Shown here piece by piece: positions 497 through 52,916 of a DNA stretch of 64,000 nucleotides. The notes under the pieces are model-generated. The model was not told the DNA's origin, ran no database searches, and worked only from the letters and a program-made list of their open reading frames with translations. Position 1 is the first letter of the stretch, and every line of letters starts with the position of its first letter. The position numbers and the translations under genes are program-made. The stretch comes from an uncultured Candidatus Saccharibacteria bacterium (lineage in GTDB: Bacteria > Patescibacteriota > Doudnabacteria > UBA920 > 2-01-FULL-46-14), in assembly GCA_964360335.1 (NCBI GenBank), contig CAYHVH010000001.1:23426-87425 (forward strand), written 5' to 3'.

Positions 497-1876
497 CTAT
501 CTACTAACTCCTAACTTTTTAAGTTCTTCCCTTGCCACCTCCCGCTCGTCCCAAGGCAGCTCCACACCGTCCACATTCAAGCTTTGCTCGTGCCCCTTGC
601 CCGTGATGGCCACCAAATCACCGCTTTTGGCTTGGTTGAGGGCAAATCTGATAGCTTCGCGGCGATCAGGGATGATAAACAAATCAGTATTAAGGCGCTT
701 GTTTTTTACGCCGGACGCAATTTCTTGGCAGATTTTCTCGGCTGGTTCCGACCGATTGTCCTCTCGGGTTAAAACTATGGAGTTGGCAAACTCGTCGGCG
801 GCGCTTCCCATCAGCGGCCGCTTGGTCGAATCACGCTCGCCGGCGGCGCCAAACACCATAATAATGCTGCCCGAAACTTTCGGCCGTAAAAACGACAGCA
901 ACTCTCGCAAGCCGTTCGGCGTATGAGCAAAATCCACCAGGACCAAAAAAGGCGCTTTGGTTTCCAAAAACTCCATCCGGCCGGAAACGGTTTTTATCTG
1001 ACTAAGCCCCTTTTGAATACTGGCCACTGGAATTTTGTAAGCTGTAGCTACGGCAATGGCCGCCAAGGCATTTTTGACATTAAACTGGCCGGGAAGGCTC
1101 AACTCTATGGGAAAGCCGCCTGCTGGAGTATGAACTGAGAGCTTGCTTCCTTCCAAACTTTCATTGATGTCGCTGGCCCAAATCTGTGCCCGACTACTGA
1201 AGCCGTAAGTAAGCAACCTCTCCTTTAATTCCTCCCCATCGCTTGGGGAGGAAGATCGGAAGGAAAGACCATCACCAGGAGACCCGCCTTCGGCAAGCTT
1301 CGGACGGGCAGGTGGGGAGAGGGGGAGAGAGGTCGAAATTAATTTCAATAGTTGTTCATAACTTTTATCCTCTCGGTTCAAAACCGCGTATTTCACATTT
1401 TTAAACACTTTTGCTTTTGCCCGCAAATACTCCCCATAAGTTTTATGATAATCCAAATGCTCGTGGGTGACATTGGTAATGACCGCCGTTTCAAAGGTAA
1501 TTCCCCATGTCCGGTATTGGTCTAAGGCGTGGGAGGTGACTTCCAAAACCGCGTACTGGGAGCCGGCTTTGACCATTTGCTGAAGCAGCCGTTGCAACAA
1601 AAAGGAGCTGGGCGTGGTGGTATGCAGGCCGGTGTCAAGCGCTTGTCGCCCGATCTGCGCATTAATTGTCGAGAGAAAAGACACTGGCAGCCCTGCGGCT
1701 TTCAAGATGCTCGCTACGAGATTAACCGTCGTGGTTTTGCCGTCAGTACCAGTGACCCCGATGACATGCAGTTTGCGGGACGGGAAGCCATAGATAAAAT
1801 TCGCGAGGATGGCTCCCGCGAGGTGGTAGTAATTGATAAGTTTTTGACCTAAAAATTTACGTAAAAAGTTTTTCAT
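497..1876 (-). CDS. murE: UDP-N-acetylmuramoyl-tripeptide synthetase (Mur ligase, MurE-like) carrying an in-frame repeat insertion
   Basis: P-loop GVTGTDGKTTT, Mur ligase middle and C-terminal domains, and a REDNRSEP motif (DNPR-like). 459 aa including a roughly 41-aa insert. Confidence 0.75.
   Translation of the reverse strand: MKNFLRKFLGQKLINYYHLAGAILANFIYGFPSRKLHVIGVTGTDGKTTTVNLVASILKAAGLPVSFLSTINAQIGRQALDTGLHTTTPSSFLLQRLLQQMVKAGSQYAVLEVTSHALDQYRTWGITFETAVITNVTHEHLDYHKTYGEYLRAKAKVFKNVKYAVLNREDKSYEQLLKLISTSLPLSPPARPKLAEGGSPGDGLSFRSSSPSDGEELKERLLTYGFSSRAQIWASDINESLEGSKLSVHTPAGGFPIELSLPGQFNVKNALAAIAVATAYKIPVASIQKGLSQIKTVSGRMEFLETKAPFLVLVDFAHTPNGLRELLSFLRPKVSGSIIMVFGAAGERDSTKRPLMGSAADEFANSIVLTREDNRSEPAEKICQEIASGVKNKRLNTDLFIIPDRREAIRFALNQAKSGDLVAITGKGHEQSLNVDGVELPWDEREVAREELKKLGVSR
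1213..1335. repeat. Family-A palindromic element inside murE, in frame (~123 bp)
   Basis: GCAACCTCTCC...CTCCCCATCGCTTGGGGAGG...GGAGAGAGGTCGAA. Encodes the loop SPGDGLSFRSSSPSDGEELKERLL. About 85% identical to the copy at 5981. Confidence 0.7.
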
Positions 1877-2008
1877 GAAACTTCCCTCCTCCCCAGGCGC
1901 CCGGCCTTCGTAGCCACTTCGGCGGAGTAGGCTGGGGAGGAGAAGGAGGAGAGGTCGAACTGTGGATCCTTGTATGCAACCTCTCTCCAGCTCTCCCCTC
2001 GCCAGGGG
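1872..2008. repeat. Family-A element, intergenic (murE start / ruvA stop), two units
   Basis: CCTCCTCCCCAGGCG...GGCTGGGGAGGAG...GGAGAGGTCGAAC and GCAACCTCTCTCCAGCTCTCCCCTCGCCAGGGGAGAGAG. Confidence 0.65.
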
Positions 2009-2021
2009 AGAGAGTTAAGCG

Positions 2022-2606
2022 TTATTGTTTCGCCAAAAGCCGCAACGCTTCCCGAATCCTTTCCTCGGAAGAGCTGAGGTTTTTCGGAATCTCCGCCAAA
2101 GCCTGCCGCGCCTCGGACCGGCTATAACCGAGCGCCAGCAAAACGTCCAGCACGTCGGCATGGGCTTTGGAGAGTTCGCGCAAGTCCTCTTCTTTGCCGC
2201 CCAAGTCCTCGCTGATCTTGTCTTTGAGCTCGACGATGAGCCGCTCGGCGGTCTTGCGGCCAATCCCCGAAACTTTGGTAAAAACGGCGGGGTCCTCATT
2301 AACAATTCCGGATTTGATCATCGCCAAGTCCGCCAGCGACATCACGGACAAAGCGAGCTTCGGTCCCACGCCCGAGACCGTGAGCAAGAGTTCAAAAAAC
2401 TCGAGCTCCGCAGTGCTGGTAAAACCATAAAGTGCGAGCTGGTCTTCGCGAACATGAGTATGAATATACAGCGAAAGTTTTTTGCCAACCTCCGAGGTCA
2501 AAGAAAGCTGGGGAATGACAAAAACTTTGTAGCCGACATAGTCGGTCGCCAGGATAATGTAGTTTTTGCGGATGGCTTTAACGGTGCCGGAGAGATAGCC
2601 GATCAT
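2022..2606 (-). CDS. ruvA: Holliday junction DNA helicase RuvA
   Basis: 194 aa. OB-fold N-terminus MIGYLSGTV, HhH motifs (LLTVSGVGPKLA, FTKVSGIGRKTAERL) and a C-terminal RuvB-binding domain. Confidence 0.85.
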   Translation of the reverse strand: MIGYLSGTVKAIRKNYIILATDYVGYKVFVIPQLSLTSEVGKKLSLYIHTHVREDQLALYGFTSTAELEFFELLLTVSGVGPKLALSVMSLADLAMIKSGIVNEDPAVFTKVSGIGRKTAERLIVELKDKISEDLGGKEEDLRELSKAHADVLDVLLALGYSRSEARQALAEIPKNLSSSEERIREALRLLAKQ

Positions 2607-2686
2607 GCAGGTATTATGCCTATTGAATAAGTTTTTTTCAATCTGCTAAAATGAAAGTTGACCCTGTCTAATCTAATGCTAATGCT

Positions 2687-2785
2687 GCCCTCTCCAGGCG
2701 TGGAGAGGGACTAAGGGAGAGGTCGCATTTGCGACATAATAAACGACCTCTCTTCCGGCCTCTCCCCACGCCTGGGGAGAGGAGA
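2687..2785. repeat. Family-A element, intergenic (ruvA / uvrB), two half-units; its 3' end GGAGAGGAGAAG lies at the Shine-Dalgarno position for uvrB
   Basis: CTCTCCAGGCGTGGAGAGGGACTAAGGGAGAGGTCGC ... CGACCTCTCTTCCGGCCTCTCCCCACGCCTGGGGAGAGGAGAAG, followed by the uvrB ATG at 2794. Confidence 0.65.
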
Positions 2786-2793
2786 AGTAGCTT

Positions 2794-5177: not shown

Positions 5178-6410
5178 TCAACCCCGGAACAGCTTGTAAA
5201 GTTTAAACAGCGCGTAAAATGCCCGATTCAAAACCAGATCCCGGGCGCCGACACCGTAGACTTCCTTGCCCGTCACTCCGGCCGTGACATACCGGGTTTT
5301 GAACCGGGTAATCCCAGCCCAAGGATGGTCTGGTTCGTTCGGCGGGGCGACGCCCCACAAATCATACCATTTTTTGCCGCGTTGTCTGCTTAATTTGATT
5401 GCTTCCCAAAGGACAAGGCTTGGAGCATTGGCGGTTCGCTCTTTGGCAGAAGAAGCCGCGTACAAATAAGTTCCGGAATCACCGAAAAGCATAATGACGG
5501 CGGCAGCCAGGATTTCGCCTTGATATTCGCCGACCAGAAGCTCGGCGTGGGGTGCAAGCGACCTCTCCTTTGGTCCCTCCCCACGCCTGGGGAGGGAAGA
5601 AGAAAATAAAGCTTCTACTTGCGGAGTATTTGACCCCTCCTCAACCCTCCCCTCCTGCCCGTCCGGCAGGCGGGCGTCAGGAGAGGGAGTCATGAAGATA
5701 TCACGGAATTTCATGAATCGCTCGCGCGGCCAAGATACAATCCCGTCTCGTTTGGTGGTTTCCTCCAAAAGCTTCAAGAAAATTTCAAAAGCCCCTTTGT
5801 CTTGAGTCGCTACTCGCACTTTTACTCCCCTGCGCTGGGCGAGGCGGATATTGTAGCGGGATTTTTCGTGCATATTCTCCAAGAGTTCTTCCTCGCTTCT
5901 GCTTAAATCCACCAAAATCGTGCGAGCTGGCTCCATCTGCCGAAGCAAAATCTCGGGCTTTCTGAAACCCAGACCTGCAAGCGACCTCTCCTTCAACTCC
6001 TCCCCATCGCCTGGGGAGGAAGAGACAGAAGGATGCGGCGGATTAATTCTCGCCAAAACGGATTTTTCCTGCCGGCCGATTTCTTTGATTTTTTCTATCA
6101 AGGCCTGCATACCCCCTCTCCACTCTCCCCCTAAGTTAGGGGGAGAAAAAGAGGGGGTACCGCCCAATTCATGATTCGTAATTCTTGATTCGTCGAAAAT
6201 CGGTCCCTTCGGCACTTCCAAATAAGTTCTGCCAAACGGCAGCCTTTTTATTACGACTTGCGCTAAAAGCTGGTTCTGGATATCGAAGCGATAAACTTTG
6301 TGGCCGAGAGCGGCTTGAAACTGCCCCCATTGCCAGGACTGGAGGAAAGAGGAAGGAGAAGAGTTCCTGGCTACAAATTCATTCCAATTATCTTTAGAAA
6401 GTAGATTCAT
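5178..6410 (-). CDS. FemAB-family peptidoglycan aminoacyltransferase (lipid II amino-acid transferase-like) carrying two in-frame repeat insertions
   Basis: FemAB/FemX-like N-terminus (SSFLQSWQWGQF) and C-terminal GNAT-like fold. 410 aa including inserts. Confidence 0.65.
   Translation of the reverse strand: MNLLSKDNWNEFVARNSSPSSFLQSWQWGQFQAALGHKVYRFDIQNQLLAQVVIKRLPFGRTYLEVPKGPIFDESRITNHELGGTPSFSPPNLGGEWRGGMQALIEKIKEIGRQEKSVLARINPPHPSVSSSPGDGEELKERSLAGLGFRKPEILLRQMEPARTILVDLSRSEEELLENMHEKSRYNIRLAQRRGVKVRVATQDKGAFEIFLKLLEETTKRDGIVSWPRERFMKFRDIFMTPSPDARLPDGQEGRVEEGSNTPQVEALFSSSLPRRGEGPKERSLAPHAELLVGEYQGEILAAAVIMLFGDSGTYLYAASSAKERTANAPSLVLWEAIKLSRQRGKKWYDLWGVAPPNEPDHPWAGITRFKTRYVTAGVTGKEVYGVGARDLVLNRAFYALFKLYKLFRG
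5566..5690. repeat. Family-A element, in frame in the FemAB-like gene (unit 1)
   Basis: GCGACCTCTCCTTTGGTCCCTCCCCACGCCTGGGGAGGGAAGAAG... Encodes ...SLPRRGEGPKERSLAP... Confidence 0.65.
5981..6160. repeat. Family-A element(s), in frame in the FemAB-like gene (unit 2 plus a nested palindrome)
   Basis: GCGACCTCTCCTTCAACTCCTCCCCATCGCCTGGGGAGGAAGAGACAGAAGG (encodes SPGDGEELKERSLAG) and CCCCCTCTCCACTCTCCCCCTAAGTTAGGGGGAGAAAAAGAGGGGG (encodes GTPSFSPPNLGGEWRGG). Confidence 0.65.
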
Positions 6411-6501: not shown

Positions 6502-9276
6502 TTACACGGCTTGCCGTGTCATCTCTTCCCAATTATCGCCGAACTTGGCTTCCACGACGAGGGGAACTTTGAGTTTATAAATATTCTGCATGATTTTGGT
6601 AATTTTTCCGGCATAGTCATCAACTTTCTTTTCGGCTATTTCAAACACCAGCTCATCGTGAACCTGTAAGAGCAACCGGCAATCCTCGCGAGACGTCAAA
6701 TTTTCCTCCGCCAGTTTGTTCATCGCCAGTTTGATAATATCCGCCGAAAGCGATTGAAACGGCATGTTGATGGCCGCTCGTTCAGCAGCGGCGCGAACTG
6801 GCCACTGCGAAGAATTAATCTCGGGGAGATACCGGAGTCGCCCGAGTTCGTTTTTGACGTAGCCCGAGCGGCGCGTTTCCCCAACTATTTCCTCAAGGTA
6901 GTGAGTCAAGCTGTGATAGGTTTCGAAATATTTATCGATAAAATCTTGGGCTTCGCCTTGGGACACTCCTTTGATCCGGCTCTTGAGACCATAAGCGGAA
7001 AGGCCGTAGAGTACCCCGAAATTTATGGTCTTGGCATCTCGGCGCATTTCCGGGGTAATTTCGACCTCTCCTCCAGCTCCTCCCCTCGCCAGGGGAGAAG
7101 GGAGGGATTGAAAAATCTCGCGAGCTGTTGCTTCGTGAATGTCGCCGCCTTCGTGAAAAACTTTAATCATTTTCTCGTCGCCCGACAAATGGGCGGCCAG
7201 ACGAAGCTCAATCTGGGAGTAGTCCACGGACAGCAATTTATACCCTGTTTCGGCAACGAACGCCCCGCGGATTTTTCGACCAAACTCGGTGCGGATCGGA
7301 ATGTTCTGGAGATTCGGTTCGCTGGAGGACAATCGCCCGGTGGCAGTAACTGTCTGGTTAAAACTTGTGTGTAGCCGCCGCGTTTGAGGACTAACCAAAT
7401 CCGGCAAGGCATCTAGATAAGTATTTTTAAGTTTCGTTAATTCCCGCCATTCCGATATCAAATCAATAATCGGATGCAATCCTTTGAGCTTCTCGAGTTC
7501 CGTGGCCGCCGTGGACAGGCCGGTTTTGCCTTTTTTGAGCTCCTCGGTGGGAATCCCCAATTTCTCAAATAATATCTGTTTTAGCTGGATCGGGCTGCCG
7601 ATGTTAAATCTCTCGCCCGAAAGCCGGTAAATCTTCTGTTCGAGTTTCGAAATCTCCGCCGTGGCCTCGGCCGACAACTCCTTCAAGCACGACGGATTGA
7701 CCTTTACTCCCCAGCGTTCCATTTCCGCCAAAACTCTCACCAGCGGCATTTCGATCTCATAAAAAATTTTCTCTAAATCTTTACTTCTTAGCTCTTTTTC
7801 CAGTTTTTGTTTTAGCCGGAAAGTGTAGTCCACATCCTCGCAACAGTAAGCCGCGACCTCTCGGACCGGCACTTCGGCCATGCTAATCTCTTTTTTGCCT
7901 TCGCCAATCAAACTTTTAATCGGGGTTTTCCGGAAGCCAAACTCGGTAAAACTTAGGGTGTCCAAATCGAAATTCCGCGCCCCGGGGTTTAAAAGATAGG
8001 CGGCAATCATCGTGTCAAAAAACTCTCCTCCCAAAATCACTCCGGCCTTTTGCAAAATCAAATAATCATACTTGAGATTATGGCCGATTTTCAGAACTTC
8101 CGGATTCTGCAAAATTTCCGTGAGGGCCGGGGAAATCATCGCCGCCGGCAGGTAAAAGGCCCGGTTTTCTTGCCACGCCAACCCGAGGCCGAGAAGCTCA
8201 GCCTGCATCGGGTGAACCGAGGTCGTTTCGGTATCAATAGCGATTTGTTTCTGCCTCTCAAGCTCAGTAATGATGCTTTGGAATTTTTTCGGCGTATCAA
8301 GGAGCTGATAGTCAAATTCCTCCTCGCCCCCTCTGCTCCCTCGAGCTCTACTTAGGGCAGGCTCATGAGGGGAGTGGGGGATGTCAGTCTTTGGCAGTTT
8401 ATCCAAAAGTGAACGGAACTCCAGCTCCTGAAAAAGTTTAAAAACTTTCTGTTCATCATAAGCCAGAAGCCGGGCCTGGGTTAAATCCAGTTTCACCGGG
8501 AGGTTTTTGACGATTGTTGCCAATTTTTTGGAAATTTCCGCATCCGCCCGGTGTTCCAGAAGCAGTCGAGCGACGCGCGGCTTGAGCGCCGAGTGGTCTT
8601 TGCCGACTAAATATTTATAAATTCCTTCCAAGGTCTTAAATTTTTGCAGGAGCTCGGTCGCGGTTTTTTCCCCGATGCCTTTGACCCCGGGAATGTTATC
8701 CGAAGGATCACCGCGCAGGGCTTTAAAATCTAGAAGTTCCTCGGGTCTGAGGCCATATCGCTCCCGAACCGCCCCCACGTCATAAAGTTTGGTTTCGGTC
8801 AAGCCTTGCTTAGGAGCATAGACTTTCACCCGTTCGTCTACTAATTGCAGGGTGTCCAAATCCCCGGTTAAAATCACAGTATCCAAATCTTCCTGCTTCC
8901 GGGCTTTTTCGGCCAGAGTGCCAATCAAATCATCAGCTTCATAACTTTCCAGTTCATAGACTGGAAGATTAAAAGCTCTGACCAATTCTTTGACGCGGGG
9001 AATTTGCTCATAAAGTTCGGCGGGGGCTTTAATTCTTGTTGCCTTATAAGGCTCATAAATTTTTTCCCGGAAAGTTGGCGCCGGAAAGTCAAACGTCACT
9101 GCCACGTACTCGGGCCGCAGTTCTTTGAGGGCTTTCAAAAACAACAGGGCAAAACCGTAAACGCCGTTTACTGGCTCGCCCTTTTTGGTGGACAGGTGAG
9201 GAATCGCGTGAAAGCCGCGGTGGACCAAAGCATTGCCGTCTACCAATAATAAAACTGGTTTATCTTTGCTGGACAT
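6502..9276 (-). CDS. polA: DNA polymerase I
   Basis: 924 aa. 5'-3' exonuclease, 3'-5' exonuclease-like and polymerase domains (motif RRDAKTINFGVLYG, and the motif-C region SQIELRLAAHLSGDE). Two in-frame repeat insertions. Confidence 0.95.
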   Translation of the reverse strand: MSSKDKPVLLLVDGNALVHRGFHAIPHLSTKKGEPVNGVYGFALLFLKALKELRPEYVAVTFDFPAPTFREKIYEPYKATRIKAPAELYEQIPRVKELVRAFNLPVYELESYEADDLIGTLAEKARKQEDLDTVILTGDLDTLQLVDERVKVYAPKQGLTETKLYDVGAVRERYGLRPEELLDFKALRGDPSDNIPGVKGIGEKTATELLQKFKTLEGIYKYLVGKDHSALKPRVARLLLEHRADAEISKKLATIVKNLPVKLDLTQARLLAYDEQKVFKLFQELEFRSLLDKLPKTDIPHSPHEPALSRARGSRGGEEEFDYQLLDTPKKFQSIITELERQKQIAIDTETTSVHPMQAELLGLGLAWQENRAFYLPAAMISPALTEILQNPEVLKIGHNLKYDYLILQKAGVILGGEFFDTMIAAYLLNPGARNFDLDTLSFTEFGFRKTPIKSLIGEGKKEISMAEVPVREVAAYCCEDVDYTFRLKQKLEKELRSKDLEKIFYEIEMPLVRVLAEMERWGVKVNPSCLKELSAEATAEISKLEQKIYRLSGERFNIGSPIQLKQILFEKLGIPTEELKKGKTGLSTAATELEKLKGLHPIIDLISEWRELTKLKNTYLDALPDLVSPQTRRLHTSFNQTVTATGRLSSSEPNLQNIPIRTEFGRKIRGAFVAETGYKLLSVDYSQIELRLAAHLSGDEKMIKVFHEGGDIHEATAREIFQSLPSPLARGGAGGEVEITPEMRRDAKTINFGVLYGLSAYGLKSRIKGVSQGEAQDFIDKYFETYHSLTHYLEEIVGETRRSGYVKNELGRLRYLPEINSSQWPVRAAAERAAINMPFQSLSADIIKLAMNKLAEENLTSREDCRLLLQVHDELVFEIAEKKVDDYAGKITKIMQNIYKLKVPLVVEAKFGDNWEEMTRQAV
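7061..7106. repeat. Family-A element in frame in the polA fingers region
   Basis: TCGACCTCTCCTCCAGCTCCTCCCCTCGCCAGGGGAGAAGGGAGGG. Encodes SLPSPLARGGAGGEVE immediately upstream of the RRxxKxxNFG O-helix. Confidence 0.65.
8318..8385. repeat. Degenerate family-A-like palindromic insert in the polA interdomain linker
   Basis: CCCCCTCTGCTCCCTCGAGC...GAGGGGAGTGGGGG. Encodes HSPHEPALSRARGSRGGEEE. Confidence 0.4.
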
Positions 9277-11113: not shown

Positions 11114-12286
11114 CTAGACCACGATTTGCGCCCGGAGTTTCTGCAATTTTTCCAGGACGTCTTTCTCCACCTCCAAGAGGCTTTGCCCCTGAACCCGGAA
11201 GGTGCCAAGCGAGCCGTTGAGCATTTGGCCGGCGAGAGCGGCCGTAACCACCTGGGCCTTGATGCTGGGATGGAGATGAAAATAGCCGACGATCTCCTGT
11301 CCGTTGACTTCTGCCAAAAACAAAATGATTTTTCGTCCCGCCAAGTTCGCCACCAGCTCCTTCATCACGCCGTAAATATCGTCCGGACTGGCGCCCGCCT
11401 TCTCTAAATCGGTAGCGGTCACCAAAGAATAGGTCAAACCCAATTCTTCTACCTCGCGCACCCGCGCCAAGGCGCGTCCCCAAAGTTTGAGAAGGGAAAT
11501 GTTCTTGGTCTTGTAGAGTTCCCGGATAATCTCCTGGTGCTTGCCGCCCTGGGCGATGAGGTTACTGGCCTTCAAAAAGGCCCGGGGGGTAGTTTTGACA
11601 TGCTGAAAACTGTTGGTCTCCACAATGATGCCGGTCAAAAGATTTGTGGCGATTGCCTCGTCAATCAAGCCAGCTTCGAAATTCTCCAGCAAACTCACTA
11701 AAATCTCCGAGGTGGCGGTCGCCGTCAAATCCACCAGATTGATCTCCCCATAATGCTCGTTGTTGGGGTGGTGATCGATGTTGATAATGGCCGTTTCAAA
11801 AAACAGGTCAGTGTTTTTCTCGTAGATCTGGCCCAAGTGCTCCAGAGAAGGGGTATCCAAAGTGACAATCAAATCATAAGGAAATTTTGCGTTGCGGAAA
11901 GAGACATCCTGGGGCGTAAACTTGCCGTCTTTCGGTTTCAGAAAAATATCCACCCGCTCAGGTTCCACCTCGTAGGAAAGCTCGTCCAGATGCGCGGCGG
12001 TGGTCTTTAAGGAAATAACAAAGCTTTGGAAAACCTGGAGATCTTTTTTAAGCTCTTCGATACCGGACAGAAAACCAAAAGGACTCAAATTGCTGGCCGC
12101 ACAAACAATCTCCGGGTTCTTTTCCAATTTTTTAAAAAAAGCAAATAAGGCCAAACCCGCTCCTAAGGCGTCGCCGTTGGGGTTCTGCGGCAAAGCCAGG
12201 AGGATCCGGTTTGCTTTGCCAATCGCGTCAATGACTTGTTTTTCGATTTGTTCTACCACAGTTGTTCTGTCATAAAAAATCGTCAA
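11114..12286 (-). CDS. DHH/DHHA1-family phosphoesterase (NrnA-like nanoRNase / pAp phosphatase)
   Basis: 390 aa. DHH motif (NIDHHPNNE) and a C-terminal DHHA1 domain. Confidence 0.7.
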   Translation of the reverse strand: MTIFYDRTTVVEQIEKQVIDAIGKANRILLALPQNPNGDALGAGLALFAFFKKLEKNPEIVCAASNLSPFGFLSGIEELKKDLQVFQSFVISLKTTAAHLDELSYEVEPERVDIFLKPKDGKFTPQDVSFRNAKFPYDLIVTLDTPSLEHLGQIYEKNTDLFFETAIINIDHHPNNEHYGEINLVDLTATATSEILVSLLENFEAGLIDEAIATNLLTGIIVETNSFQHVKTTPRAFLKASNLIAQGGKHQEIIRELYKTKNISLLKLWGRALARVREVEELGLTYSLVTATDLEKAGASPDDIYGVMKELVANLAGRKIILFLAEVNGQEIVGYFHLHPSIKAQVVTAALAGQMLNGSLGTFRVQGQSLLEVEKDVLEKLQKLRAQIVV

Positions 12287-15726: not shown

Positions 15727-15802
15727 CAACATAAGTCCATATTGTCTACGTTTTTATGTAATTACATAATGTTGTAGACAAGCGAATTTAGCAAAAAGTA
15801 AA

Positions 15803-15838
15803 AAAGGAGACAGACTACAACGCGGTCTGTCAGCGCTT
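15803..15838 (-). repeat. 36-bp hairpin repeat copy 1 (AAAAAGGAGACAGACTACAACGCGGTCTGTCAGCGCT); terminator of the minus-strand RibA-like gene
   Basis: Identical copy at 17683-17717. On the minus strand it reads GACAGACCGCGTTGTAGTCTGTC then TCCTTTTT. Confidence 0.7.
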
Positions 15839-15846
15839 CTTTGGGG

Positions 15847-16731
15847 CTACCCCGGCCAATCAGAGTAATCCCAGCCATCTGCAAGGGGAAGGTGTATGTT
15901 GTGTCCGTGGAGAGATTTTGTCGAAAGCTCAAGTCTGTTAAAGTCATTAACTTCTGCCTGAAGGGGCACCCATTGTACTGCAAATCCTTCTTGCTTGAGG
16001 CGGTTGATTTTCCGAGGGTTATTCGTGGCGGCAATCAGACCGATTTTTGTGATATCGAAGTGTTTGAGGATTACCATCTGATCTTCCAGCTCGTCCCACT
16101 CCGGACGGCTGGAAATTCTGACAAACGGCTCCCACCAGCGGTCTATCTTGGCCGGGTCGGGGTCAAGGCCTTTTCGAATGGCGACTATTTCCGCCATTGT
16201 ATCAATCAGCGCGTGGTTCCTCGGCCCCAGTCCTTTTCCAACATGATGCAGAGCGAGAATAATCATCCCGGGGTGACCTTCTCCCCAGCTGTTGGAAACC
16301 CGCTGCTTTGCCATCTCGAACTGATCACCGCAATCACACGTTACCGCCCCTTCAACAATGCCATTAAGGCACATCGATTGGAGACGAACGACTACTGCCT
16401 CGGTTTGGAGGCTGCTGTCATTCCCCAGCCAAAGCACCCGATATTCCCGCTCTGGATGATAACAATAACCAGCGATTTCCGGTGGCTGGCTGTCCCTTTT
16501 CGCAACGTCTGACCCTCCCCAAAAACGGAAATGGGCCTTATTGAACAAGACCGCCCTTTCCTCACGACCCCCCAAGCGGCCGAGCGACCACCATTTCCGA
16601 TGACTTTCTGATCGTCGCAACCGCAACCACTCGTGATAGGGCCCAATCATCTCGAAGCCTTGCTCTTGGTTGGTCACAATACCCTCTAGCTTACCCCAAA
16701 AATCCTGACTGCCCCCCTTATTGTCACTCAT
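15847..16731 (-). CDS. GTP cyclohydrolase II (RibA)-family protein with an N-terminal extension
   Basis: 294 aa. VRLQSMCLNG...CDCGDQFE matches the RibA zinc site (HSECLTG...CDCGFQ). GMIILALHHVGKGLG matches GILLYHRQEGRNIG. AATNNPRKINRLKQEGF matches LTNNPKKVEILTEAG. Confidence 0.6.
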   Translation of the reverse strand: MSDNKGGSQDFWGKLEGIVTNQEQGFEMIGPYHEWLRLRRSESHRKWWSLGRLGGREERAVLFNKAHFRFWGGSDVAKRDSQPPEIAGYCYHPEREYRVLWLGNDSSLQTEAVVVRLQSMCLNGIVEGAVTCDCGDQFEMAKQRVSNSWGEGHPGMIILALHHVGKGLGPRNHALIDTMAEIVAIRKGLDPDPAKIDRWWEPFVRISSRPEWDELEDQMVILKHFDITKIGLIAATNNPRKINRLKQEGFAVQWVPLQAEVNDFNRLELSTKSLHGHNIHLPLADGWDYSDWPG

Positions 16732-17653: not shown

Positions 17654-17682
17654 ATTTTCTGGACTAGGAAAAGGGGATAAAA

Positions 17683-17717
17683 AGGAGACAGACTACAACG
17701 CGGTCTGTCAGCGCTAA
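17683..17717 (-). repeat. 36-bp hairpin repeat copy 2; terminator of the minus-strand OMP-like gene
   Basis: Identical to 15803-15838. On the minus strand the hairpin is followed by TCCTTTTTAT. Confidence 0.7.
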
Positions 17718-18295
17718 AAACGAACAGTGGTGATGACGTAGGTCCGGAAGAAACGCGGCTCGCCTTGGTTGCGGAAATGGTAAGTCCCAGTTACCCAAAG
17801 GGTAACAGGACCTCGGTTTACGAGCCGAAAGCTGAGTCGCGAGCCACCGCCGTAGGAATCACGCCCACGCTTGTGAAGGTTTTCCGTCTCCACCCCAATC
17901 TTCCATCTGTCGCTTAACCGATAGTCAAATATGACGACTTCGGAAAAACTCCTGCGACTGGAAACGGGATACAACTCAAGGTAGAGATTGGCGCGTTTGC
18001 CGAAATCCCGGTTGAAACGGAAATTGAGCTGCCACTGGTGTCCCTTGGTGCTCCACTGCCGCTGGACGAGTGTCTCGAGCCACCAGTTATTGCGCTTGTA
18101 TCCCAGTCCGCCGAAGAGGTTGATGTTGTCTGGCTGCGCCTGCCGTACATTGCCAATCATCCACCCTGCAAGAAACCAGTTCTCGCCCAGCTTTTTGGTG
18201 ATATGCACTGGCGTCCGCAACTGAACAACATGATCCTGGGCCAAGAGGGGAGAGCCAAAAAGAAGAGCGAGTATCAGCAGCGTTGCTTTGCCCAT
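17714..18295 (-). CDS. Secreted beta-barrel-like protein (OmpW/OMP-beta-barrel-like), 193 aa
   Basis: Signal peptide MGKATLLILALLFGSPLLAQ, alternating amphipathic beta-strand pattern, and a C-terminal aromatic residue (..TTVRF). Confidence 0.4.
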   Translation of the reverse strand: MGKATLLILALLFGSPLLAQDHVVQLRTPVHITKKLGENWFLAGWMIGNVRQAQPDNINLFGGLGYKRNNWWLETLVQRQWSTKGHQWQLNFRFNRDFGKRANLYLELYPVSSRRSFSEVVIFDYRLSDRWKIGVETENLHKRGRDSYGGGSRLSFRLVNRGPVTLWVTGTYHFRNQGEPRFFRTYVITTVRF

Positions 18296-23997: not shown

Positions 23998-24235
23998 TGA
24001 CCTTCAGAATTTTTGCCTCATGGAGCCGGAGTTCATTGGCCATCACGGCGCTTCGGGTTTTGACGGTGAGGGTTTTTTTCTGGAGACTGACTGGCCTGAT
24101 CGCCTCGGATTCGGGGATCAAATTTTTTATTTCCGCCCGATAGAGATCGAAAATTCGCACGATTTCCAGCTGCCGCGAAAGCTCGTCTTTGCGGCTGAAT
24201 TTGCCCTGGAGCGTTTCCCCTAATTTTTTAAACAT
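23945..24235 (-). CDS. DUF721 (DciA-like) protein downstream of recF
   Basis: 96 aa. Conserved position after recF in the dnaA-dnaN-recF cluster. Confidence 0.55.
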   Translation of the reverse strand: MFKKLGETLQGKFSRKDELSRQLEIVRIFDLYRAEIKNLIPESEAIRPVSLQKKTLTVKTRSAVMANELRLHEAKILKVINQTVGHQAVKRVIYRF

Positions 24236-25358: not shown

Positions 25359-25360
25359 TT

Positions 25361-26455: not shown

Positions 26456-26499
26456 AAAAGTGATTGTTTCTAAAGAAGAAGTTTTAGTAAGGAGTAATT

Positions 26500-46212: not shown

Positions 46213-48270
46213 ATGGCTGACCTTGTGAAACTCAAAGAACTCGCCAGGCTCGTTCGTTACTATATTCTGGTCTCGACCACGGCCGCGGGGTCCGGGCACC
46301 CAACATCTTCGCTGTCTGGCGTGGAACTGATGACGGCATTGATGTTTGGCGGCTATTTTCGCTTTGACTTGAATCGTCTGGGATACGCAAACAATGACCG
46401 GCTGATTTTCTCCAAAGGCCATGCCTCGCCCCTCTTCTATGCGCTGTGGGCAGCGGCTGGCGCGCTGACGGAAAAAGAGCTTTTGACTTTGCGCAAATTT
46501 GGCAGCCCTTTGGAGGGGCATCCTACCCCGGCATTTCCCTATACCGAAGCGGCGACAGGCTCTTTGGGACAAGGGTTGTCAATTGGCGTGGGCATGGCCC
46601 TTAATGCCAAGCTTGACCGGCTTCCCTATCGCACTTATGTGCTTTTGGGGGACAGTGAAATGGCCGAGGGCTCGCAATGGGAGGCGATTCAGCTCGCCGC
46701 GTACTATAAACTTGATAATTTGGTCGGCGTTCTCGATGTCAATCGTTTGGGTCAACGAGGGCAGACGATTTACGGGCATGATATTAAAGCTTATCAGAAA
46801 CGCATCGCGGCGTTCGGGTGGAAGACTATAGTCGTGAATGGGCATAATTTGAATGAGATTTTGAAAGCGTACAAACAGGCGACCCCCTCTTCATCTCCCC
46901 CTATCCCGTTTGACGGGACAGGGGGAGAAAAGAGAGGGGGTGGAAGGCCGGTGATGATCATTGCCAAAACCATTAAAGGTAAAGGAGTTTCATTTATCGA
47001 AAACAAAGAAGGCTGGCATGGGAAGGCGCTTTCCCCGGAGGATTTGAGGAAGGCACTACGAGAATTGGGGAAAGTCGACAAGAAGATGCGAGGAGAGATG
47101 GCAAAGCCGGAGAGAATTAGTAGACCGGAGACAGTAGATAGTAGATCGGAAAGCAAAGAAAAAATTAATTACAAAATCGGAGAAGAGGCGGCAACAAGGA
47201 AGGCTTACGGTAACGCCCTAGTCAGGATTTATCCGAAGTTTCCGAATATCGTAGTCCTCGACGCCGAGGTTTCCAATTCAACTTACGCGGAGATATTCAA
47301 GGAAAAATATCCGGACCGGTTTTTGGAGATGTTTGTGGCGGAGCAGAATATGGTGGGTGCGGCTCTTGGTCTTTCGCGGCGCGGCAAGATCCCGTTTGTT
47401 TCGACCTTTGCCGCGTTCCTGACGCGCGCTTTTGACCAAATCCGAATGAGCCAGTATTCGGCCGCCAACATCAAGTTTGTGGGCTCGCACGCCGGGGTGT
47501 CCATCGGCGAGGACGGGCCGTCGCAGATGGGCCTCGAGGATTTGGCAATGTTTCGCAGTATTTTAGGAAGCGTGGTTTTGTATCCTTCGGATGCGGTTTC
47601 AACCGATAAGCTTGTGGAAGCGGCAGCTAAGCACAAAGGCATTGTCTATATCAGAACAACGCGAATGGAAACCCCGGTGCTTTATTCCCCGGGGCAGGAG
47701 TTCAAAATCGGCGGGAGTAAAGTTTTGCGCCATAGCCGGAAAGACGTGGCGACAGTGCTGGCGGCCGGGATAACATTGCATGAAGCGTTGGCCGCTTATG
47801 AAGAACTCAAGAAGCAAGGGGTTTTGATTCGGGTGATTGACTTGTACAGCATCAAACCGATTGATAAAAAGACATTGACGCAGGCTGCCAAAGAAACGGG
47901 AGCGATAATCACGGTCGAGGACCATTATCCCGAGGGCGGGATTGGGGAAGCGATTAGAAGCGCTCTTTCTGACCTCCCTCCCCAAAGCATGGGGAGGGAT
48001 AAAGGGAGAGGTTTTCCGCCAGCCCGCCCCGCTTCGCTTGGCGAGGCCGGGGAGGCGGATCCGCCTTGGGCAGAGAAACTCCCTGGTAAAACCGACCTCT
48101 CTCCTTCTCTCCCCATCACCTGGGGAGAGGGTAGGATTATCTCTTTAGCGGTGCGCAAAATGCCGCGAAGCGGCAAACCGCAGGAGCTTTTGGATTATGA
48201 AGAGATATCGCGCGATGCTATTATTAAGGAAGTAAAGAGAATTGTTTCTAAATCGTCACCTCGAATTTAA
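46213..48270 (+). CDS. tkt: Transketolase (full length) carrying 2-3 in-frame repeat insertions
   Basis: ThDP-binding motifs (GHPTPAF..., LLGDSEMAEGSQWEA), pyrimidine-binding and C-terminal domains. 685 aa. Confidence 0.9.
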   Translation: MADLVKLKELARLVRYYILVSTTAAGSGHPTSSLSGVELMTALMFGGYFRFDLNRLGYANNDRLIFSKGHASPLFYALWAAAGALTEKELLTLRKFGSPLEGHPTPAFPYTEAATGSLGQGLSIGVGMALNAKLDRLPYRTYVLLGDSEMAEGSQWEAIQLAAYYKLDNLVGVLDVNRLGQRGQTIYGHDIKAYQKRIAAFGWKTIVVNGHNLNEILKAYKQATPSSSPPIPFDGTGGEKRGGGRPVMIIAKTIKGKGVSFIENKEGWHGKALSPEDLRKALRELGKVDKKMRGEMAKPERISRPETVDSRSESKEKINYKIGEEAATRKAYGNALVRIYPKFPNIVVLDAEVSNSTYAEIFKEKYPDRFLEMFVAEQNMVGAALGLSRRGKIPFVSTFAAFLTRAFDQIRMSQYSAANIKFVGSHAGVSIGEDGPSQMGLEDLAMFRSILGSVVLYPSDAVSTDKLVEAAAKHKGIVYIRTTRMETPVLYSPGQEFKIGGSKVLRHSRKDVATVLAAGITLHEALAAYEELKKQGVLIRVIDLYSIKPIDKKTLTQAAKETGAIITVEDHYPEGGIGEAIRSALSDLPPQSMGRDKGRGFPPARPASLGEAGEADPPWAEKLPGKTDLSPSLPITWGEGRIISLAVRKMPRSGKPQELLDYEEISRDAIIKEVKRIVSKSSPRI
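46880..46945. repeat. Family-A-type nested palindrome in frame in tkt
   Basis: CGACCCCCTCTTCATCTCCCCCTATCCCGTTTGACGGGACAGGGGGAGAAAAGAGAGGGGGTGG. Encodes TPSSSPPIPFDGTGGEKRGGG. Confidence 0.65.
47970..48140. repeat. Composite family-A insertion (three palindromic units, ~171 bp) in frame in the tkt C-terminal domain
   Basis: TGACCTCCCTCCCCAAAGCATGGGGAGGGATAAAGGGAGAGG ... GGCGGATCCGCC ... CCGACCTCTCTCCTTCTCTCCCCATCACCTGGGGAGAGGG. Encodes a 57-aa loop. Confidence 0.7.
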
Positions 48271-50930: not shown

Positions 50931-51827
50931 ATGAGGCCCTCAAATTTAAAAACCCGCATCTTTCTTGACTCTGGGGATCCGAACGAAACGCGTGAAGTCA
51001 TAAAGTTTCTCGGGTTTTTGGACGGTCAGACGACTAATCCCAGCTTAATTGCCAAGAACCCGGAAACGACCGGCAAGAAATTTTCCCAAAAAGAGATTTT
51101 GGAATTTTATAAAAAAGTCGTGGTTGAGGTTTCCGCTCTGATCCCCGCCGGTTCCGTATCAGTTGAGGTTTACGCTGACCCTTCGACAAGCTCAGGGGAT
51201 ATGTTAGAACAAGGTCGAGATTTTTTTTCTTGGATTCCAAACGCACACATCAAATTTCCGACAACCAAAGAGGGCCTGAAGGCCGCTGAAATTGCCGTTA
51301 AAGAAGGCATGCGCGTCAATTTGACTTTGTGCTTTTCCCAGGAGCAGGCGGCGGCCGTGTACGCGGCAACGAGGGGAGCAAAAAAAGGGCAGGTCTTTGT
51401 TTCGCCGTTTGTCGGGCGGCTGGATGATCGGGGGGAGAACGGGATGCAGCTCGTTGAGAATATTATCAAAATGTATCGGGCGGGAGACGGGCATGTGGAG
51501 GTGCTGACCGCGAGCGTACGGAATCTCAATCATTTGCAGTACGCAATTCAGCTCGGTTCCGACATCCTGACCGCGCTGTTGAAGGTTTTGAAGGAGTGGG
51601 CCGACTCCAATTTCCCTCCCCAGGCGTGGAGAGCCCCCTTCTCTATCCCTCCCCAGGCGAGGGGAGGGATTAAGGGAGAGGTCGAAACGGCAAAGGAGTT
51701 GAAGCCAATACCCTACCGCGAGGTTTCTCTTGACAATCCCTGGCAGGACTACGACATTCGTCATGAGCTGACCGACGTCGGCATTGAAAAGTTTGCCGCG
51801 GATTGGAACGCGCTTATCAAGCCATAA
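50931..51827 (+). CDS. tal: Transaldolase / fructose-6-phosphate aldolase family (TalC/MipB-type) with an in-frame repeat insertion
   Basis: DSGDPNE..., FPTTKEGLKAAE..., NLTLCFS motifs. 298 aa. Confidence 0.85.
   Translation: MRPSNLKTRIFLDSGDPNETREVIKFLGFLDGQTTNPSLIAKNPETTGKKFSQKEILEFYKKVVVEVSALIPAGSVSVEVYADPSTSSGDMLEQGRDFFSWIPNAHIKFPTTKEGLKAAEIAVKEGMRVNLTLCFSQEQAAAVYAATRGAKKGQVFVSPFVGRLDDRGENGMQLVENIIKMYRAGDGHVEVLTASVRNLNHLQYAIQLGSDILTALLKVLKEWADSNFPPQAWRAPFSIPPQARGGIKGEVETAKELKPIPYREVSLDNPWQDYDIRHELTDVGIEKFAADWNALIKP
51611..51685. repeat. Family-A element in frame in tal
   Basis: ...CCCTCCCCAGGCGTGGAGAG...CCCTCCCCAGGCGAGGGGAGGGATTAAGGGAGAGGTCGAA. Encodes FPPQAWRAPFSIPPQARGGIKGEVE. Confidence 0.7.
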
Positions 51828-51857: not shown

Positions 51858-52916
51858 ATGATGCGCGACGCGATTCTCAGTTTTCCGAAGCAGTTCCGGT
51901 TCGTCCCGAAGGTGGAAAACGGGCCGGTGAAAAAATACAAAAAATACATTGTCGCCGGCATGGGCGGTTCGCACCTCGCCGCGGATATTTTGAAGACTTT
52001 AAAACCGGAATTGGATATCATCGTACATAGTGATTACGGATTGCCGGCTTTTCTCGACCCCTCCCGGCCTTCGGCCACCCTCCCCTCGTCAGGAGAGGGG
52101 GGAAGTAAGGAAAAACGTCTGGAGAGGCGAATTTCGCAAACTTTGCTCATCGCGAGTTCCTATTCGGGTAATACTGAAGAGACACTGGATGCATTTGAAC
52201 AAGCAAGAAGTAAAGGAATCGCAGTGGCGGCGATTGCGGTTGGCGGCAAGCTTCTGGAACTGGCCAAGCAGTATCAAACTCCTTATGTTCAGATGCCGGA
52301 TACGGGGATTCAGCCCCGTTCGGCCCTGGGCTTCAATTTGCGAGCGCTTCTGAAAATCATGAAGCAAGGCGAGCTCCTCAGGCAGAGCCGGGAGCTGGCT
52401 AAAAGTTTGCAGCCTAAGAATATCGAGGAAAAAGGCCGAGCGCTCGCGCAAAAGCTAAAGAGTCGGATGCCGGTAATTTACGCGTCGCAAAAAAACTATT
52501 CGCTCGCCTATAACTGGAAAATCAAATTTAACGAGACGGGCAAAATCCCGACCTTTTACAATATTTTTCCGGAACTGAATCACAACGAGATGTCCGGATT
52601 TTCCGCCGCAGGCGGACCCGCCTCTGGCGGGGACGCACCCGATCCTAAAAGTTTGTCAGAAAAATTTTATTTTCTCTTTTTGCATGACAGCAGCGATCAC
52701 CCGCAAATCCAAAAGCGAATGGACGCAACCGCGAAACTTTATCGGGAGCGCGGTTTGCCAGTGGAAATTTTACCGATTCAGGGGGAGAACGCCATGCACA
52801 AAATCTTCTCCTCACTGGTCCTTGCCGACTGGGCGGCACTTTACACGGCCGAGGGATATGGGTTTGAGGCCGAACGGGTGCCGATGGTGGAGGAGTTCAA
52901 GAAACTGATTAAGTGA
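51858..52916 (+). CDS. Bifunctional phosphoglucose/phosphomannose isomerase (archaeal-type SIS-domain PGI/PMI) with an in-frame repeat insertion
   Basis: Two SIS domains (VAGMGGSHLAADIL...; ...LIASSYSGNTEETL). 352 aa. Confidence 0.7.
   Translation: MMRDAILSFPKQFRFVPKVENGPVKKYKKYIVAGMGGSHLAADILKTLKPELDIIVHSDYGLPAFLDPSRPSATLPSSGEGGSKEKRLERRISQTLLIASSYSGNTEETLDAFEQARSKGIAVAAIAVGGKLLELAKQYQTPYVQMPDTGIQPRSALGFNLRALLKIMKQGELLRQSRELAKSLQPKNIEEKGRALAQKLKSRMPVIYASQKNYSLAYNWKIKFNETGKIPTFYNIFPELNHNEMSGFSAAGGPASGGDAPDPKSLSEKFYFLFLHDSSDHPQIQKRMDATAKLYRERGLPVEILPIQGENAMHKIFSSLVLADWAALYTAEGYGFEAERVPMVEEFKKLIK
52054..52110. repeat. Family-A-like palindrome in frame in the PGI/PMI gene
   Basis: CTCGACCCCTCCCGGCCTTCGGCCACCCTCCCCTCGTCAGGAGAGGGGGGAAG. 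Encodes DPSRPSATLPSSGEGGSKE. Confidence 0.6.

What the first reader, a model, noticed from the sequence alone, without database searches (positions are those of the whole stretch)
497..1876. murE carries a 123-bp element insertion, and a second copy abuts its start codon
The in-frame copy at 1213-1335 adds about 41 residues (…SPGDGLSFRSSSPSDGEELKERLL…) to the N-terminal domain of the Mur ligase. A further two-unit copy at 1872-2008 fills the murE/ruvA spacer directly upstream of the murE start. The elements therefore contribute both coding sequence and 5' UTR to this gene.
Basis: seen in the sequence. Interest (0 to 1): 0.6.

Follow-up and report, generated by a model that had tools for sequence, protein, structure and literature searches.

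The report
Palindromic repeat inserted in-frame in murE
A small hairpin-forming repeat that is scattered through this groundwater Doudnabacteria (CPR) genome sits in-frame inside the cell-wall gene murE and fills the spacer in front of it, and it does the same to at least six other housekeeping genes nearby, a pattern best documented until now in Rickettsia.

Summary
ORF 497-1876 (-) is a MurE-type Mur ligase. It carries a 123-127 nt repeat copy (1211-1337) bounded by inverted termini CAACCTCTCC / AGAGAGGTCG. Two more units (1880-1957, 1974-2016) fill the 145-nt ruvA-murE spacer up to 3-8 nt from the ATG.

The insert is missing from the syntenic orthologs L128, L129 and L006. It is predicted to be a disordered loop in an otherwise confident MurE fold. 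It lies in the central ATP-binding domain, not the N-terminal domain; this protein has no canonical N-terminal domain.

The same unit (CGACCTCTCC-N5-7-CCTCCCC-loop-GGGGAGG) occurs at about 12 loci in the 64 kb. Ten of these are in-frame inside murE, femAB (3), polA, ruvC, tkt (2), tal and pgi. They are read in different frames and orientations, so this is a DNA-level element.

Best explanation: a non-autonomous, stop-poor palindromic repeat tolerated in surface loops, analogous to Rickettsia palindromic elements.

Unresolved:
- who mobilises it;
- why distant orthologs carry it at the same murE site;
- whether motif matches in more than 10 phyla and in phage contigs are true homologs;
- whether the SD-like arm next to the ATG matters.

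New member of a known kind; interest moderate to high.

The parts
497..1876 (-). murE CDS (459 aa): MurE-type Mur ligase with central and C-terminal domains only
   Evidence: Pfam Mur_ligase_M 3.8e-50 and Mur_ligase_C 1.4e-30, no PF01225. Best PDB sequence matches are MurE. The AF2 model has pLDDT 91.8 and matches E. coli MurE 1e8c with TM 0.81-0.82 and rmsd 2.0-2.1 A.
1211..1337 (.). Intragenic double-hairpin element. The termini are CAACCTCTCC (1214-1223) and AGAGAGGTCG (1326-1335), with hairpin CCTCCCCATCGCTTGGGGAGG at 1228-1254. It encodes MurE residues about 180-222.
   Evidence: Absent from L128, L129 and L006. The RNA fold has the termini pairing as a closing stem around inner hairpins, z = -2.2. 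The model shows coil with pLDDT 43-75 between H173-181 and H215-220.
1880..1957 (-). Spacer unit next to the murE start. A long-loop hairpin (1886-1942) is followed by terminus GGAGAGGTCG (1948-1957).
1885..1890 (-). SD-like AGGAGG, 8 nt upstream of the murE ATG. It is part of the purine arm of the hairpin and is predicted to be base-paired.
   Evidence: Read directly from the sequence; fold. Only 8 of 50 genes in the window have any SD-like 4-mer.
1974..2016 (+). Second spacer unit: CAACCTCTCTCC plus hairpin CTCTCCCCTCGCCAGGGGAGAG. It ends 6-8 nt from the ruvA stop.
   Evidence: nhmmer E = 1e-9. The hairpin is conserved in L005 with one compensatory pair.
2022..2606 (-). ruvA, upstream of murE on the same strand. 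A promoter-like TTGAAA-17-CATAAT lies at 2641-2613.
2678..2791 (.). Inverted doublet of units between ruvA and uvrB. It ends 3 nt before the uvrB ATG (2794), and its purine arm supplies GGAGAGGAG.
   Evidence: Inverted repeat I5. Fold of -65.6 kcal/mol, z = -6.4. A promoter-like site at 2623-2652 (+) would place it in the uvrB leader.
5556..5690 (.). Two units in-frame in femAB (site 3, +38 aa vs L128)
5979..6040 (.). Unit in-frame in femAB (site 2, +12 aa). It is 91% identical to the murE copy over 45 nt.
6110..6159 (.). 50-nt near-perfect pyrimidine/purine palindrome in-frame in femAB (site 1, contiguous 54-nt insertion)
7059..7115 (.). Unit in-frame in polA fingers region (+10 aa vs L128 and L129)
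36170..36235 (.). Unit in-frame in ruvC (+16 aa vs E. coli RuvC 1hjr)
46883..46940 (.). Variant palindrome in-frame in transketolase (+19 aa vs human TKT)
47950..48140 (.). Two inverted units in-frame in transketolase C-terminal domain (+54 aa)
51600..51690 (.). Two hairpins plus terminus, in-frame in transaldolase (inside a 54-aa insertion)
52050..52125 (.). Variant unit (CGACCCCTCC...) within the pgi ORF, read in the opposite orientation. Whether it is an insertion was not checked against homologs.

Best explanation
The 123-127 nt segment inside murE and the two units in front of it are copies of a small non-autonomous palindromic repeat that is dispersed through this Candidatus Doudnabacteria genome.

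Each unit has a conserved terminus, CGACCTCTCC, followed by a pyrimidine arm, a short loop and a purine arm (CCTCCCC-N4-7-GGGGAGG). Full copies are closed by the inverted terminus GGAGAGGTCG.

The arms are almost pure pyrimidine on one strand and pure purine on the other, so most reading frames through them lack stop codons. Copies that land in a gene survive when three conditions hold: their length keeps the frame, the frame is open, and the site is a surface loop. In those cases they are simply translated. In MurE the result is a Pro/Ser/Gly/Glu-rich, disordered extra loop of about 35-40 residues in the central domain, and the ligase fold stays intact.

The spacer copy is most likely transcribed as part of a ruvA-murE-tsaB message. 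It can fold into stable hairpins that bury an AGGAGG lying 8 nt from the murE ATG.

Shown: repeat status, in-frame position, absence from syntenic orthologs, translation in several frames and orientations, hairpin potential, and predicted loop location.

Inferred: mobility, the trans-acting enzyme, transcription, translation of the insert, and any effect on initiation.
For: 1. Motif counts are far above shuffles. Pyrimidine/purine hairpins occur at 30 loci against 1-10 in shuffles.
2. The filled site in the window contrasts with empty sites in syntenic relatives. This holds for murE, the ruvA-murE spacer (145 nt vs 9, 2 and 18 nt), femAB (three sites) and polA. nhmmer finds no unit in 37 kb of L128 and L129.
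3. Inserts are also confirmed against solved structures for RuvC, transaldolase and transketolase.
4. The purine end of the unit is read in all three frames: KERS (murE, femAB x2, ruvC), GEVE (polA, tal) and GRGF (tkt). It is also read in the opposite orientation (pgi, second tkt unit, 5' half of the murE copy). Intergenic copies exist too. The repeat is therefore a DNA feature, not a protein motif.
5. All 10 intragenic loci keep the ORF open, so they behave as translated sequence.
6. In the AF2 model (pLDDT 91.8) the insert is coil with pLDDT 43-75. The rest of the model superposes on MurE crystal structures with TM 0.81.
7. The DNA of L005, L127 and L007 shows that residues at this site in other orthologs are also encoded by such hairpins.
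8. Folds: the termini close the murE copy. The spacer copies have z = -3.4 and -6.4, and the GGAGG motifs are paired.
9. In-frame repeats of this type are an established phenomenon in Rickettsia (PMC10969869, read).
Against: - No transposase or autonomous partner was found. The 29 window ORFs scanned against Pfam show none. No protein family recurs next to motif copies in other genomes; the maximum is 7 of 119 loci.
- No target-site duplication is visible at the five filled/empty comparisons.
- No closely related strain is available, and no empty allele is on record. Recent movement is therefore not demonstrated.
- Copies remain 80-91% alike. The murE site is occupied in at least 4 subclades of orthologs that are only about 60% identical in protein. 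A purely neutral, decaying parasite does not explain this easily.
- The fold z-score of the intragenic copy is only -2.2.
Confidence: 0.75

Rival explanations
1. The hairpins are functional RNA or DNA modules kept by selection, for example mRNA stabilisers, processing sites, pause sites or translation-initiation switches. On this view the murE copies regulate expression of the ruvA-murE-tsaB and uvrB messages and are not mere passengers.
For: - The hairpin at the murE site is kept in four lineages with different stem sequences: CCTCCCCAAGCGATGGGGAGG, CCCTCCCCAAGAGATGGGGAGGG, CCTCCCCCCTCGAGGGGGAGG and CCTCCCCCTTGAGGGGGGAGG.
- The two-unit spacer architecture is shared with L005, with compensatory pairs.
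- The orthologous elements are 80% identical while the flanking gene DNA is 73-75%.
- Both intergenic copies end 3-8 nt from a start codon and bury a GGAGG in a stem.
Against: - The syntenic relatives L128, L129 and L006 do without any of these copies and have 2-18 nt spacers.
- Only 8 of 50 genes here have an SD-like motif, and many look leaderless.
- Across 148 motif copies in other genomes, a start codon 3-12 nt downstream of GGAGAGGT is no more frequent than at random positions (7.4% vs 7.6%).
- Positions inside seven unrelated enzymes, in different frames, argue against a common regulatory role.
Confidence: 0.15
2. The segment is removed or skipped, through RNA splicing, ribosomal bypassing or protein splicing, so mature MurE does not contain it.
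For: Short GC-rich hairpin elements inside genes are bypassed by ribosomes in some mitochondria (own knowledge). The insert is flanked by inverted termini that could bring its ends together.
Against: - All 10 intragenic loci preserve the frame and lack stops in the used frame. That would not be needed if they were skipped; the chance is about (1/3)^10 for frame alone.
- No Rfam intron or ribozyme matches.
- 41 residues of low complexity have no intein features.
Confidence: 0.03
3. It is an ordinary lineage-specific low-complexity loop of MurE, and the DNA similarity to other loci is compositional coincidence or an assembly artefact.
For: The arms are low-complexity pyrimidine/purine runs. Many orthologs have Pro/Gly/Glu-rich extras at the same loop.
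Against: - The 45-nt stretch is 91% identical to the femAB copy and 78% identical to another. The specific 10-mer termini are shared, and intergenic copies exist.
- 0 of 100 shuffles reach the motif counts.
- Four independent assemblies give the same protein.
Confidence: 0.02

Closest known systems
Rickettsia palindromic elements (RPE; Ogata et al. 2000, as summarised in PMC10969869)
   Same: - Short palindromic dispersed repeats.
- A large share sit in-frame inside unrelated housekeeping genes and extend the protein without destroying it.
- Copies also occur between genes.
- No transposase is encoded.
- Insertion sites are compatible with the protein fold.
   Different: - The host is a different phylum (CPR/Patescibacteria, free in groundwater metagenomes).
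- The unit is shorter (45-65 nt; doubles reach 115-140 nt).
- The arms are GC-rich pyrimidine/purine with CGACCTCTCC termini.
- Sequence relatedness to RPE families was not tested and is not expected.
- Here the motif also has matches in many other phyla.
REP / REPIN elements with RAYT transposases
   Same: - A small imperfect palindrome preceded by a conserved linear head.
- Inverted doublets with a short spacer (2678-2791 and 1880-2016) look like REPINs.
- No target-site duplication.
   Different: - REPs are by definition extragenic and carry GTAG or CGTC heads (PMC3733652 abstract). Here 10 of 12 loci are intragenic and the head is CGACCTCTCC.
- No RAYT gene was seen in the ORFs scanned.
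Bacterial MITEs (e.g. Correia, ERIC, Nezha)
   Same: Non-coding, non-autonomous and multi-copy, with terminal inverted repeats. Occasional in-frame intragenic copies are known (PMC10969869).
   Different: - About 90% of catalogued bacterial MITEs are intergenic (PMC11602168).
- No TSD and no matching IS were found here.
- The units are smaller than most MITEs.

Membership tests
Rickettsia palindromic elements (RPE) | Dispersed palindromic repeat with several copies per genome | tested here: met
   About 17 hairpin units at about 12 loci in 64 kb; motif counts exceed all shuffles.
Rickettsia palindromic elements (RPE) | Copies inserted in-frame in protein-coding genes, leaving the ORF intact | tested here: met
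   The copies lie in murE, femAB x3, polA, ruvC, tkt x2, tal and pgi. Insertions were verified against syntenic orthologs or PDB homologs for all except pgi.
Rickettsia palindromic elements (RPE) | Insert lies in a position compatible with the fold (surface loop) | tested here: met
   In the MurE AF2 model the insert is low-confidence coil, and the rest matches 1e8c with TM 0.81. This was tested for MurE only.
Rickettsia palindromic elements (RPE) | Sequence similarity to the RPE-1 to RPE-10 consensus; Rickettsia host | not testable with these tools
   No RPE consensus is held in the tools. The host here is Doudnabacteria. The relation is treated as an analogy, not membership.
MITE | Terminal inverted repeats | tested here: met
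   The murE copy is bounded by CAACCTCTCC and AGAGAGGTCG. Consensus termini CGACCTCTCC / GGAGAGGTCG appear at other copies.
MITE | Target-site duplication flanking each copy | tested here: not met
   No consistent direct duplication at the murE, polA or three femAB filled-versus-empty comparisons. Junctions in low-complexity sequence are hard to place to the base.
MITE | Parent insertion sequence with the same ends and a transposase | tested here: inconclusive
   No transposase among the 29 window ORFs scanned. No protein family recurs near motif copies in 119 loci. Paired copies 2 kb apart in phage contigs turned out to be two separate intergenic copies. The rest of the genome was not available.
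REP/REPIN | Extragenic location | tested here: not met
   10 of 12 loci are inside ORFs.
REP/REPIN | GTAG or CGTC head next to the palindrome | tested here: not met
   Heads read (T/A)(T/A)(C/G)CGACCTCTCC.
REP/REPIN | Associated RAYT (Y1 transposase) gene flanked by REPs | tested here: inconclusive
   Not seen in the scanned ORFs. About 20 window ORFs and the rest of the 135-kb contig were not scanned.
MurE (UDP-MurNAc-tripeptide synthetase) | Mur ligase central and C-terminal domains, with a fold matching solved MurE | tested here: met
MurE (UDP-MurNAc-tripeptide synthetase) | N-terminal UDP-binding domain (PF01225) | tested here: not met
   Residue 20 aligns with residues 97-134 of solved MurE. 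PF01225 is absent here and in CPR orthologs but present in non-CPR hits such as P0076 and P0093. A single N-terminal helix (2-29) replaces it.

The most novel reading that the evidence does not exclude
The Doudnabacteria repeat may belong to a very widespread superfamily of stop-poor double-hairpin elements.

The canonical form would be ACCTCTCCCCC-RR-CCCCTCCCC-loop-GGGGAGGGGAG ... CTCCCCCTTCCC-loop-GGGAAGGGGG-YY-GGGGGGTTAGGT. It occurs in Chloroflexota, Armatimonadota, Nostocales, Bacteroidota, Saccharibacteria and other phyla, and in phage contigs.

These elements would colonise coding sequence in-frame in many lineages. Copies were seen in HsdR of a Nostoc MAG, in Ddl, a GT2 glycosyltransferase and Wzy of Saccharibacteria MAGs, and in AcrB of an Elusimicrobia MAG. 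They would spread without a dedicated linked transposase, perhaps by homology-guided copying into sites that resemble their own ends. They would be held near consensus by selection or gene conversion.
Probability: 0.3. Interest if true: 0.8.

Novelty: new member of a known kind. Interest (0 to 1): 0.6.

Why it matters
If this reading holds, the phenomenon of selfish DNA inside protein-coding genes is not a Rickettsia oddity. It also shapes essential enzymes (cell wall, DNA repair and replication, pentose-phosphate pathway) in an ultra-small CPR bacterium.

- It offers a concrete source for the many unexplained loop insertions in CPR proteins.
- It warns annotators and structure predictors that such Pro/Ser/Gly/Glu-rich loops are repeat-derived.
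- It gives a tractable test case, MurE with and without the insert, for how much foreign sequence an essential enzyme tolerates.

The motif matches in many phyla and in phages, if homologous, would point to an unusually mobile and durable class of miniature elements whose mechanism of spread is unknown.

Tried and rejected
- **Rfam.** Only three tRNAs reach gathering score in the window. On canonical copies from other phyla there are only sub-threshold miRNA-like hairpin hits.
- **Literature.** Seven full-text searches, including the terminus sequences themselves, found no name for this element and no report for CPR or Doudnabacteria.
- **'Portable Shine-Dalgarno module'.** This looked attractive by eye but is not supported. 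Start codons 3-12 nt after GGAGAGGT are as frequent as at random positions, and the genome itself rarely uses SD.
- **Autonomous transposon in phage contigs.** Two inverted copies 2,034 nt apart proved to be two separate intergenic copies between phage genes.
- **Linked transposase by guilt-by-association.** All-against-all BLAST of 2,059 ORFs around 119 loci gave no recurrent neighbour.
- **Empty allele in the same population.** The 90% cluster holds only insert-bearing 459-aa proteins plus unrelated 49-aa sequences.
- **Target-site duplications.** None were seen.
- **'Host-derived palindrome arms' at femAB site 1.** This was an alignment artefact. Realigned, it is one contiguous 54-nt insertion.
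- **Microhomology of empty sites to the element ends.** This is striking for polA in L128 (TTCGACCTC-N9-GAAGAGGTC), but it is post hoc, my rough estimate is p about 0.02, and it is not clear at other sites.
Full report
**1. What is at the coordinates**

ORF 497-1876 on the minus strand encodes a 459-aa protein with Pfam Mur_ligase_M (3.8e-50, matched in two stretches, the first being residues 41-180 = profile 1-135 of 200) and Mur_ligase_C (1.4e-30). Its best matches among solved structures are MurE enzymes. The named homologs come from Candidatus Doudnabacteria and other CPR lineages.

The identical protein is encoded on contigs from three replicate Hainich H51 groundwater metagenomes and a Logan assembly. 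ruvA (2022-2606) lies upstream on the same strand and a tsaB-like gene (116-481) lies downstream. This order is conserved in relatives.

**2. The repeat**

A unit of about 45 nt recurs in the window: CGACCTCTCC, 5-7 nt, then a hairpin CCTCCCC-N4-7-GGGGAGG.
- GGAGAGGTCG with up to one mismatch occurs 16 times against 3.8 expected.
- CTCCCC-N3-8-GGGGAG occurs 10 times against 0.05 expected.
- Neither count is reached by any of 100 shuffles.
- A broader scan for pyrimidine-arm/purine-arm hairpins finds 30 loci against 1-10 in shuffles. About 17 of them are clearly of this family.

Stems vary in a compensatory way: CCTCCCC/GGGGAGG, CTCTCCCC/GGGGAGAG, CCCTCTCC/GGAGAGGG, TCTCCCCCT/AGGGGGAGA.

Complete copies are long imperfect palindromes, or two hairpins closed by the inverted termini.

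**3. The murE copy**

The copy is bounded by CAACCTCTCC (1214-1223) and AGAGAGGTCG (1326-1335). It contributes residues about 180-222...STSLPLSPPARPKLAEGGSPGDGLSFRSSSPSDGEELKER.... As RNA, the termini are predicted to pair and enclose the inner hairpins, though the z-score is modest at -2.2.

In the alignment with 21 orthologs, and again with 113, the segment is an insertion after residue 180. The syntenic loci L128 (MurE 426 aa), L129 (419 aa) and L006 (424 aa) have plain sequence there. nhmmer with the unit profile finds nothing in the 37 kb of L128 and L129.

The AlphaFold model is confident (mean pLDDT 91.8, pTM 0.90) except for residues about 182-214. These are coil with pLDDT 43-75, between helix 173-181 and helix 215-220. 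The model superposes on E. coli and S. aureus MurE with TM 0.81-0.82 and rmsd about 2 A.

The insert is therefore a loop extension in the central ATP-binding domain. The canonical N-terminal domain (PF01225) is absent from this protein and from its CPR orthologs.

**4. The copy in front of murE**

The 145-nt spacer between the ruvA stop and the murE ATG consists almost entirely of two units in tail-to-tail arrangement, at 1880-1957 and 1974-2016. In relatives without the element the spacer is 18, 9 or 2 nt.

The purine arm next to the ATG reads GGGGAGGAGGG, which places AGGAGG 8 nt from the start. In the predicted fold (-70.5 kcal/mol, z = -3.4) it is paired.

A similar inverted doublet at 2678-2791 ends 3 nt before the uvrB ATG and folds very stably, with z = -6.4.

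The only promoter-like matches near here are upstream of ruvA (2641-2613, minus strand) and upstream of the uvrB doublet (2623-2652, plus strand). None lies in the ruvA-murE spacer. The murE-proximal copy is thus more likely intercistronic than a true 5' UTR.

Only 8 of 50 genes in the window have any SD-like 4-mer, and many have TATAAT a few bases before the ATG. Whether the element's AGGAGG is used is therefore open.

**5. The wider pattern in the window**

The same family sits inside six other genes:

| Gene | Position | Gain |
|---|---|---|
| femAB (three sites) | 5556-5690, 5979-6040, 6110-6159 | 38, 12 and 18 aa vs L128 |
| polA | 7059-7115 | 10 aa vs L128 and L129 |
| ruvC | 36170-36235 | 16 aa vs 1hjr |
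| transketolase | 46883-46940 and 47950-48140 | 19 and 54 aa vs human TKT |
| transaldolase | 51600-51690 | lies inside a 54-aa insertion |
| pgi | 52050-52125 | not checked against homologs |

The purine end of the unit is translated as KERS, GEVE or GRGF depending on the gene. In pgi, the second tkt unit and the 5' half of the murE copy the opposite strand is read. The repeat is therefore defined at the DNA level.

Ten of twelve loci are intragenic, and all ten keep the reading frame. In a census of 183,232 genomes, by contrast, about 90% of bacterial MITEs are intergenic (PMC11602168).

**6. History of the murE site**

Nine of 38 Doudnabacteria-clade orthologs carry at least 7 extra residues at this site. 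Further hot spots lie after residues 251-254, after 308, and at the C-terminus.

The DNA of L005 shows a 108-nt version of the same double-hairpin element with the same right junction, and the same two-unit spacer architecture. L127 and L007 keep a hairpin at the site.

A rough neighbour-joining tree groups the window's MurE with P0008 and P0003, which have no insert. P0002 (L005) falls elsewhere, and site-1 inserts occur in at least four subclades.

The window and L005 elements are 80% identical, against 73-75% for the flanking gene DNA. The window's murE copy is 87-89% identical to its femAB copies.

Two readings fit. Either an old insertion was lost cleanly many times while the survivors were kept near consensus, or insertion recurs at the same spot. 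I cannot decide between them.

**7. Mechanism**

No transposase was found among the 29 window ORFs scanned. No target-site duplication was seen.

The most economical model is a non-autonomous palindromic repeat mobilised in trans by an unidentified activity. Selection then removes every intragenic copy that breaks a frame, brings a stop codon or hits a structured region. The pyrimidine/purine arms make most frames open; across the ten element copies examined, 3-5 of the six frames are stop-free.

Removal by splicing or bypass is unlikely, because frame preservation at all ten loci would then be unnecessary.

A regulatory role for the intergenic copies is possible but untested.

**8. Beyond this genome**

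My own uniform-composition estimate gives about 2 by chance. It also hit 15 IMG/VR contigs.

The hits span Chloroflexota, Armatimonadota, Nostocales, Bacteroidota, Saccharibacteria and other Patescibacteria, Bipolaricaulota, Planctomycetota and Proteobacteria.

Many show a common 85-nt form with a second hairpin and an opposite terminus GGGGGTTAGGT, features the pattern did not impose. Several lie in-frame in real genes: HsdR, Ddl, a GT2 glycosyltransferase, AcrB and Wzy.

Because the pattern is low-complexity and was taken from the window, homology with the Doudnabacteria unit is suggestive, not proven.

Neither Rfam nor the searchable literature gave a name for it.

**9. Verdict**

The closest known phenomenon is the Rickettsia palindromic elements (PMC10969869). 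This is a new family in a new phylum rather than a member of the RPE families. Interest is moderate to high, chiefly because of the density of in-frame copies in essential genes of a CPR bacterium and the possible superfamily spanning many phyla.

Noticed in passing
window 497-1876 (and orthologs P0002-P0120): The MurE of this lineage, and of other CPR groups (Daviesbacteria, Woykebacteria), lacks the canonical N-terminal UDP-binding domain PF01225 and starts with a single long helix. Non-CPR hits in the same search (P0076, P0093) have the domain.
   Followed up: partly
L008-L126 (GTDB genomes) and L130-L144 (IMG/VR): The unit pattern matches at least 119 genome stretches in more than 10 phyla, plus 15 viral contigs. 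Many share an 85-nt two-hairpin form ending in GGGGGTTAGGT. Some copies are in-frame in HsdR, Ddl, GT2, AcrB and Wzy genes.
   Followed up: partly
L128 3052-5904 (polA), region encoding EIFDLETPEEVTPEMRR: The 'empty' polA site of a relative reads TTCGACCTC-N9-GAAGAGGTC, resembling the element's two termini. This may hint at homology-guided insertion, or it may be coincidence.
   Followed up: partly
window 24228-28709: recF, dnaN and dnaA lie on the minus strand and rnpA on the plus strand. The chromosomal replication origin region probably lies near 28.2-28.35 kb.
   Followed up: no
window, upstream of many genes (e.g. 6410, 34257, 34296, 46213): Most genes lack a Shine-Dalgarno motif (8 of 50 have one), and several have TATAAT 6-10 nt before the ATG. 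This suggests widespread leaderless or very short-leader mRNAs.
   Followed up: partly
window 15801-15837 and 17679-17715: A perfect 37-nt direct repeat occurs 1,878 nt apart. On the minus strand each copy is a terminator-like hairpin with a U-run, directly after the stop codons of two genes (15847-16731 and 17714-18295). Both genes also have strong AAGGAGG sites.
   Followed up: partly
L012 3772-4625 (Rikenellaceae MAG): Three of the four motif copies there sit in a tandem array with a 156-nt period. This is a different genomic arrangement from the dispersed copies elsewhere.
   Followed up: no
L131 2873-2905 and 4907-4939 (also L139, L143): In a high-GC phage contig, two complete single-hairpin copies each sit exactly between a stop codon and the next start codon of neighbouring phage genes. 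GGAGAGGT lies 4-5 nt before one ATG.
   Followed up: yes
protein cluster of P0001: The 90% identity cluster of this MurE also lists three unrelated 49-aa proteins (P0121, P0122, P0124) seen on dozens of contigs. This looks like a clustering artefact.
   Followed up: partly
window 11114-12286: The DHH-family protein matches the 125-position Pfam DHH profile over 190 residues, so it may hold a further, more decayed insertion.
   Followed up: no
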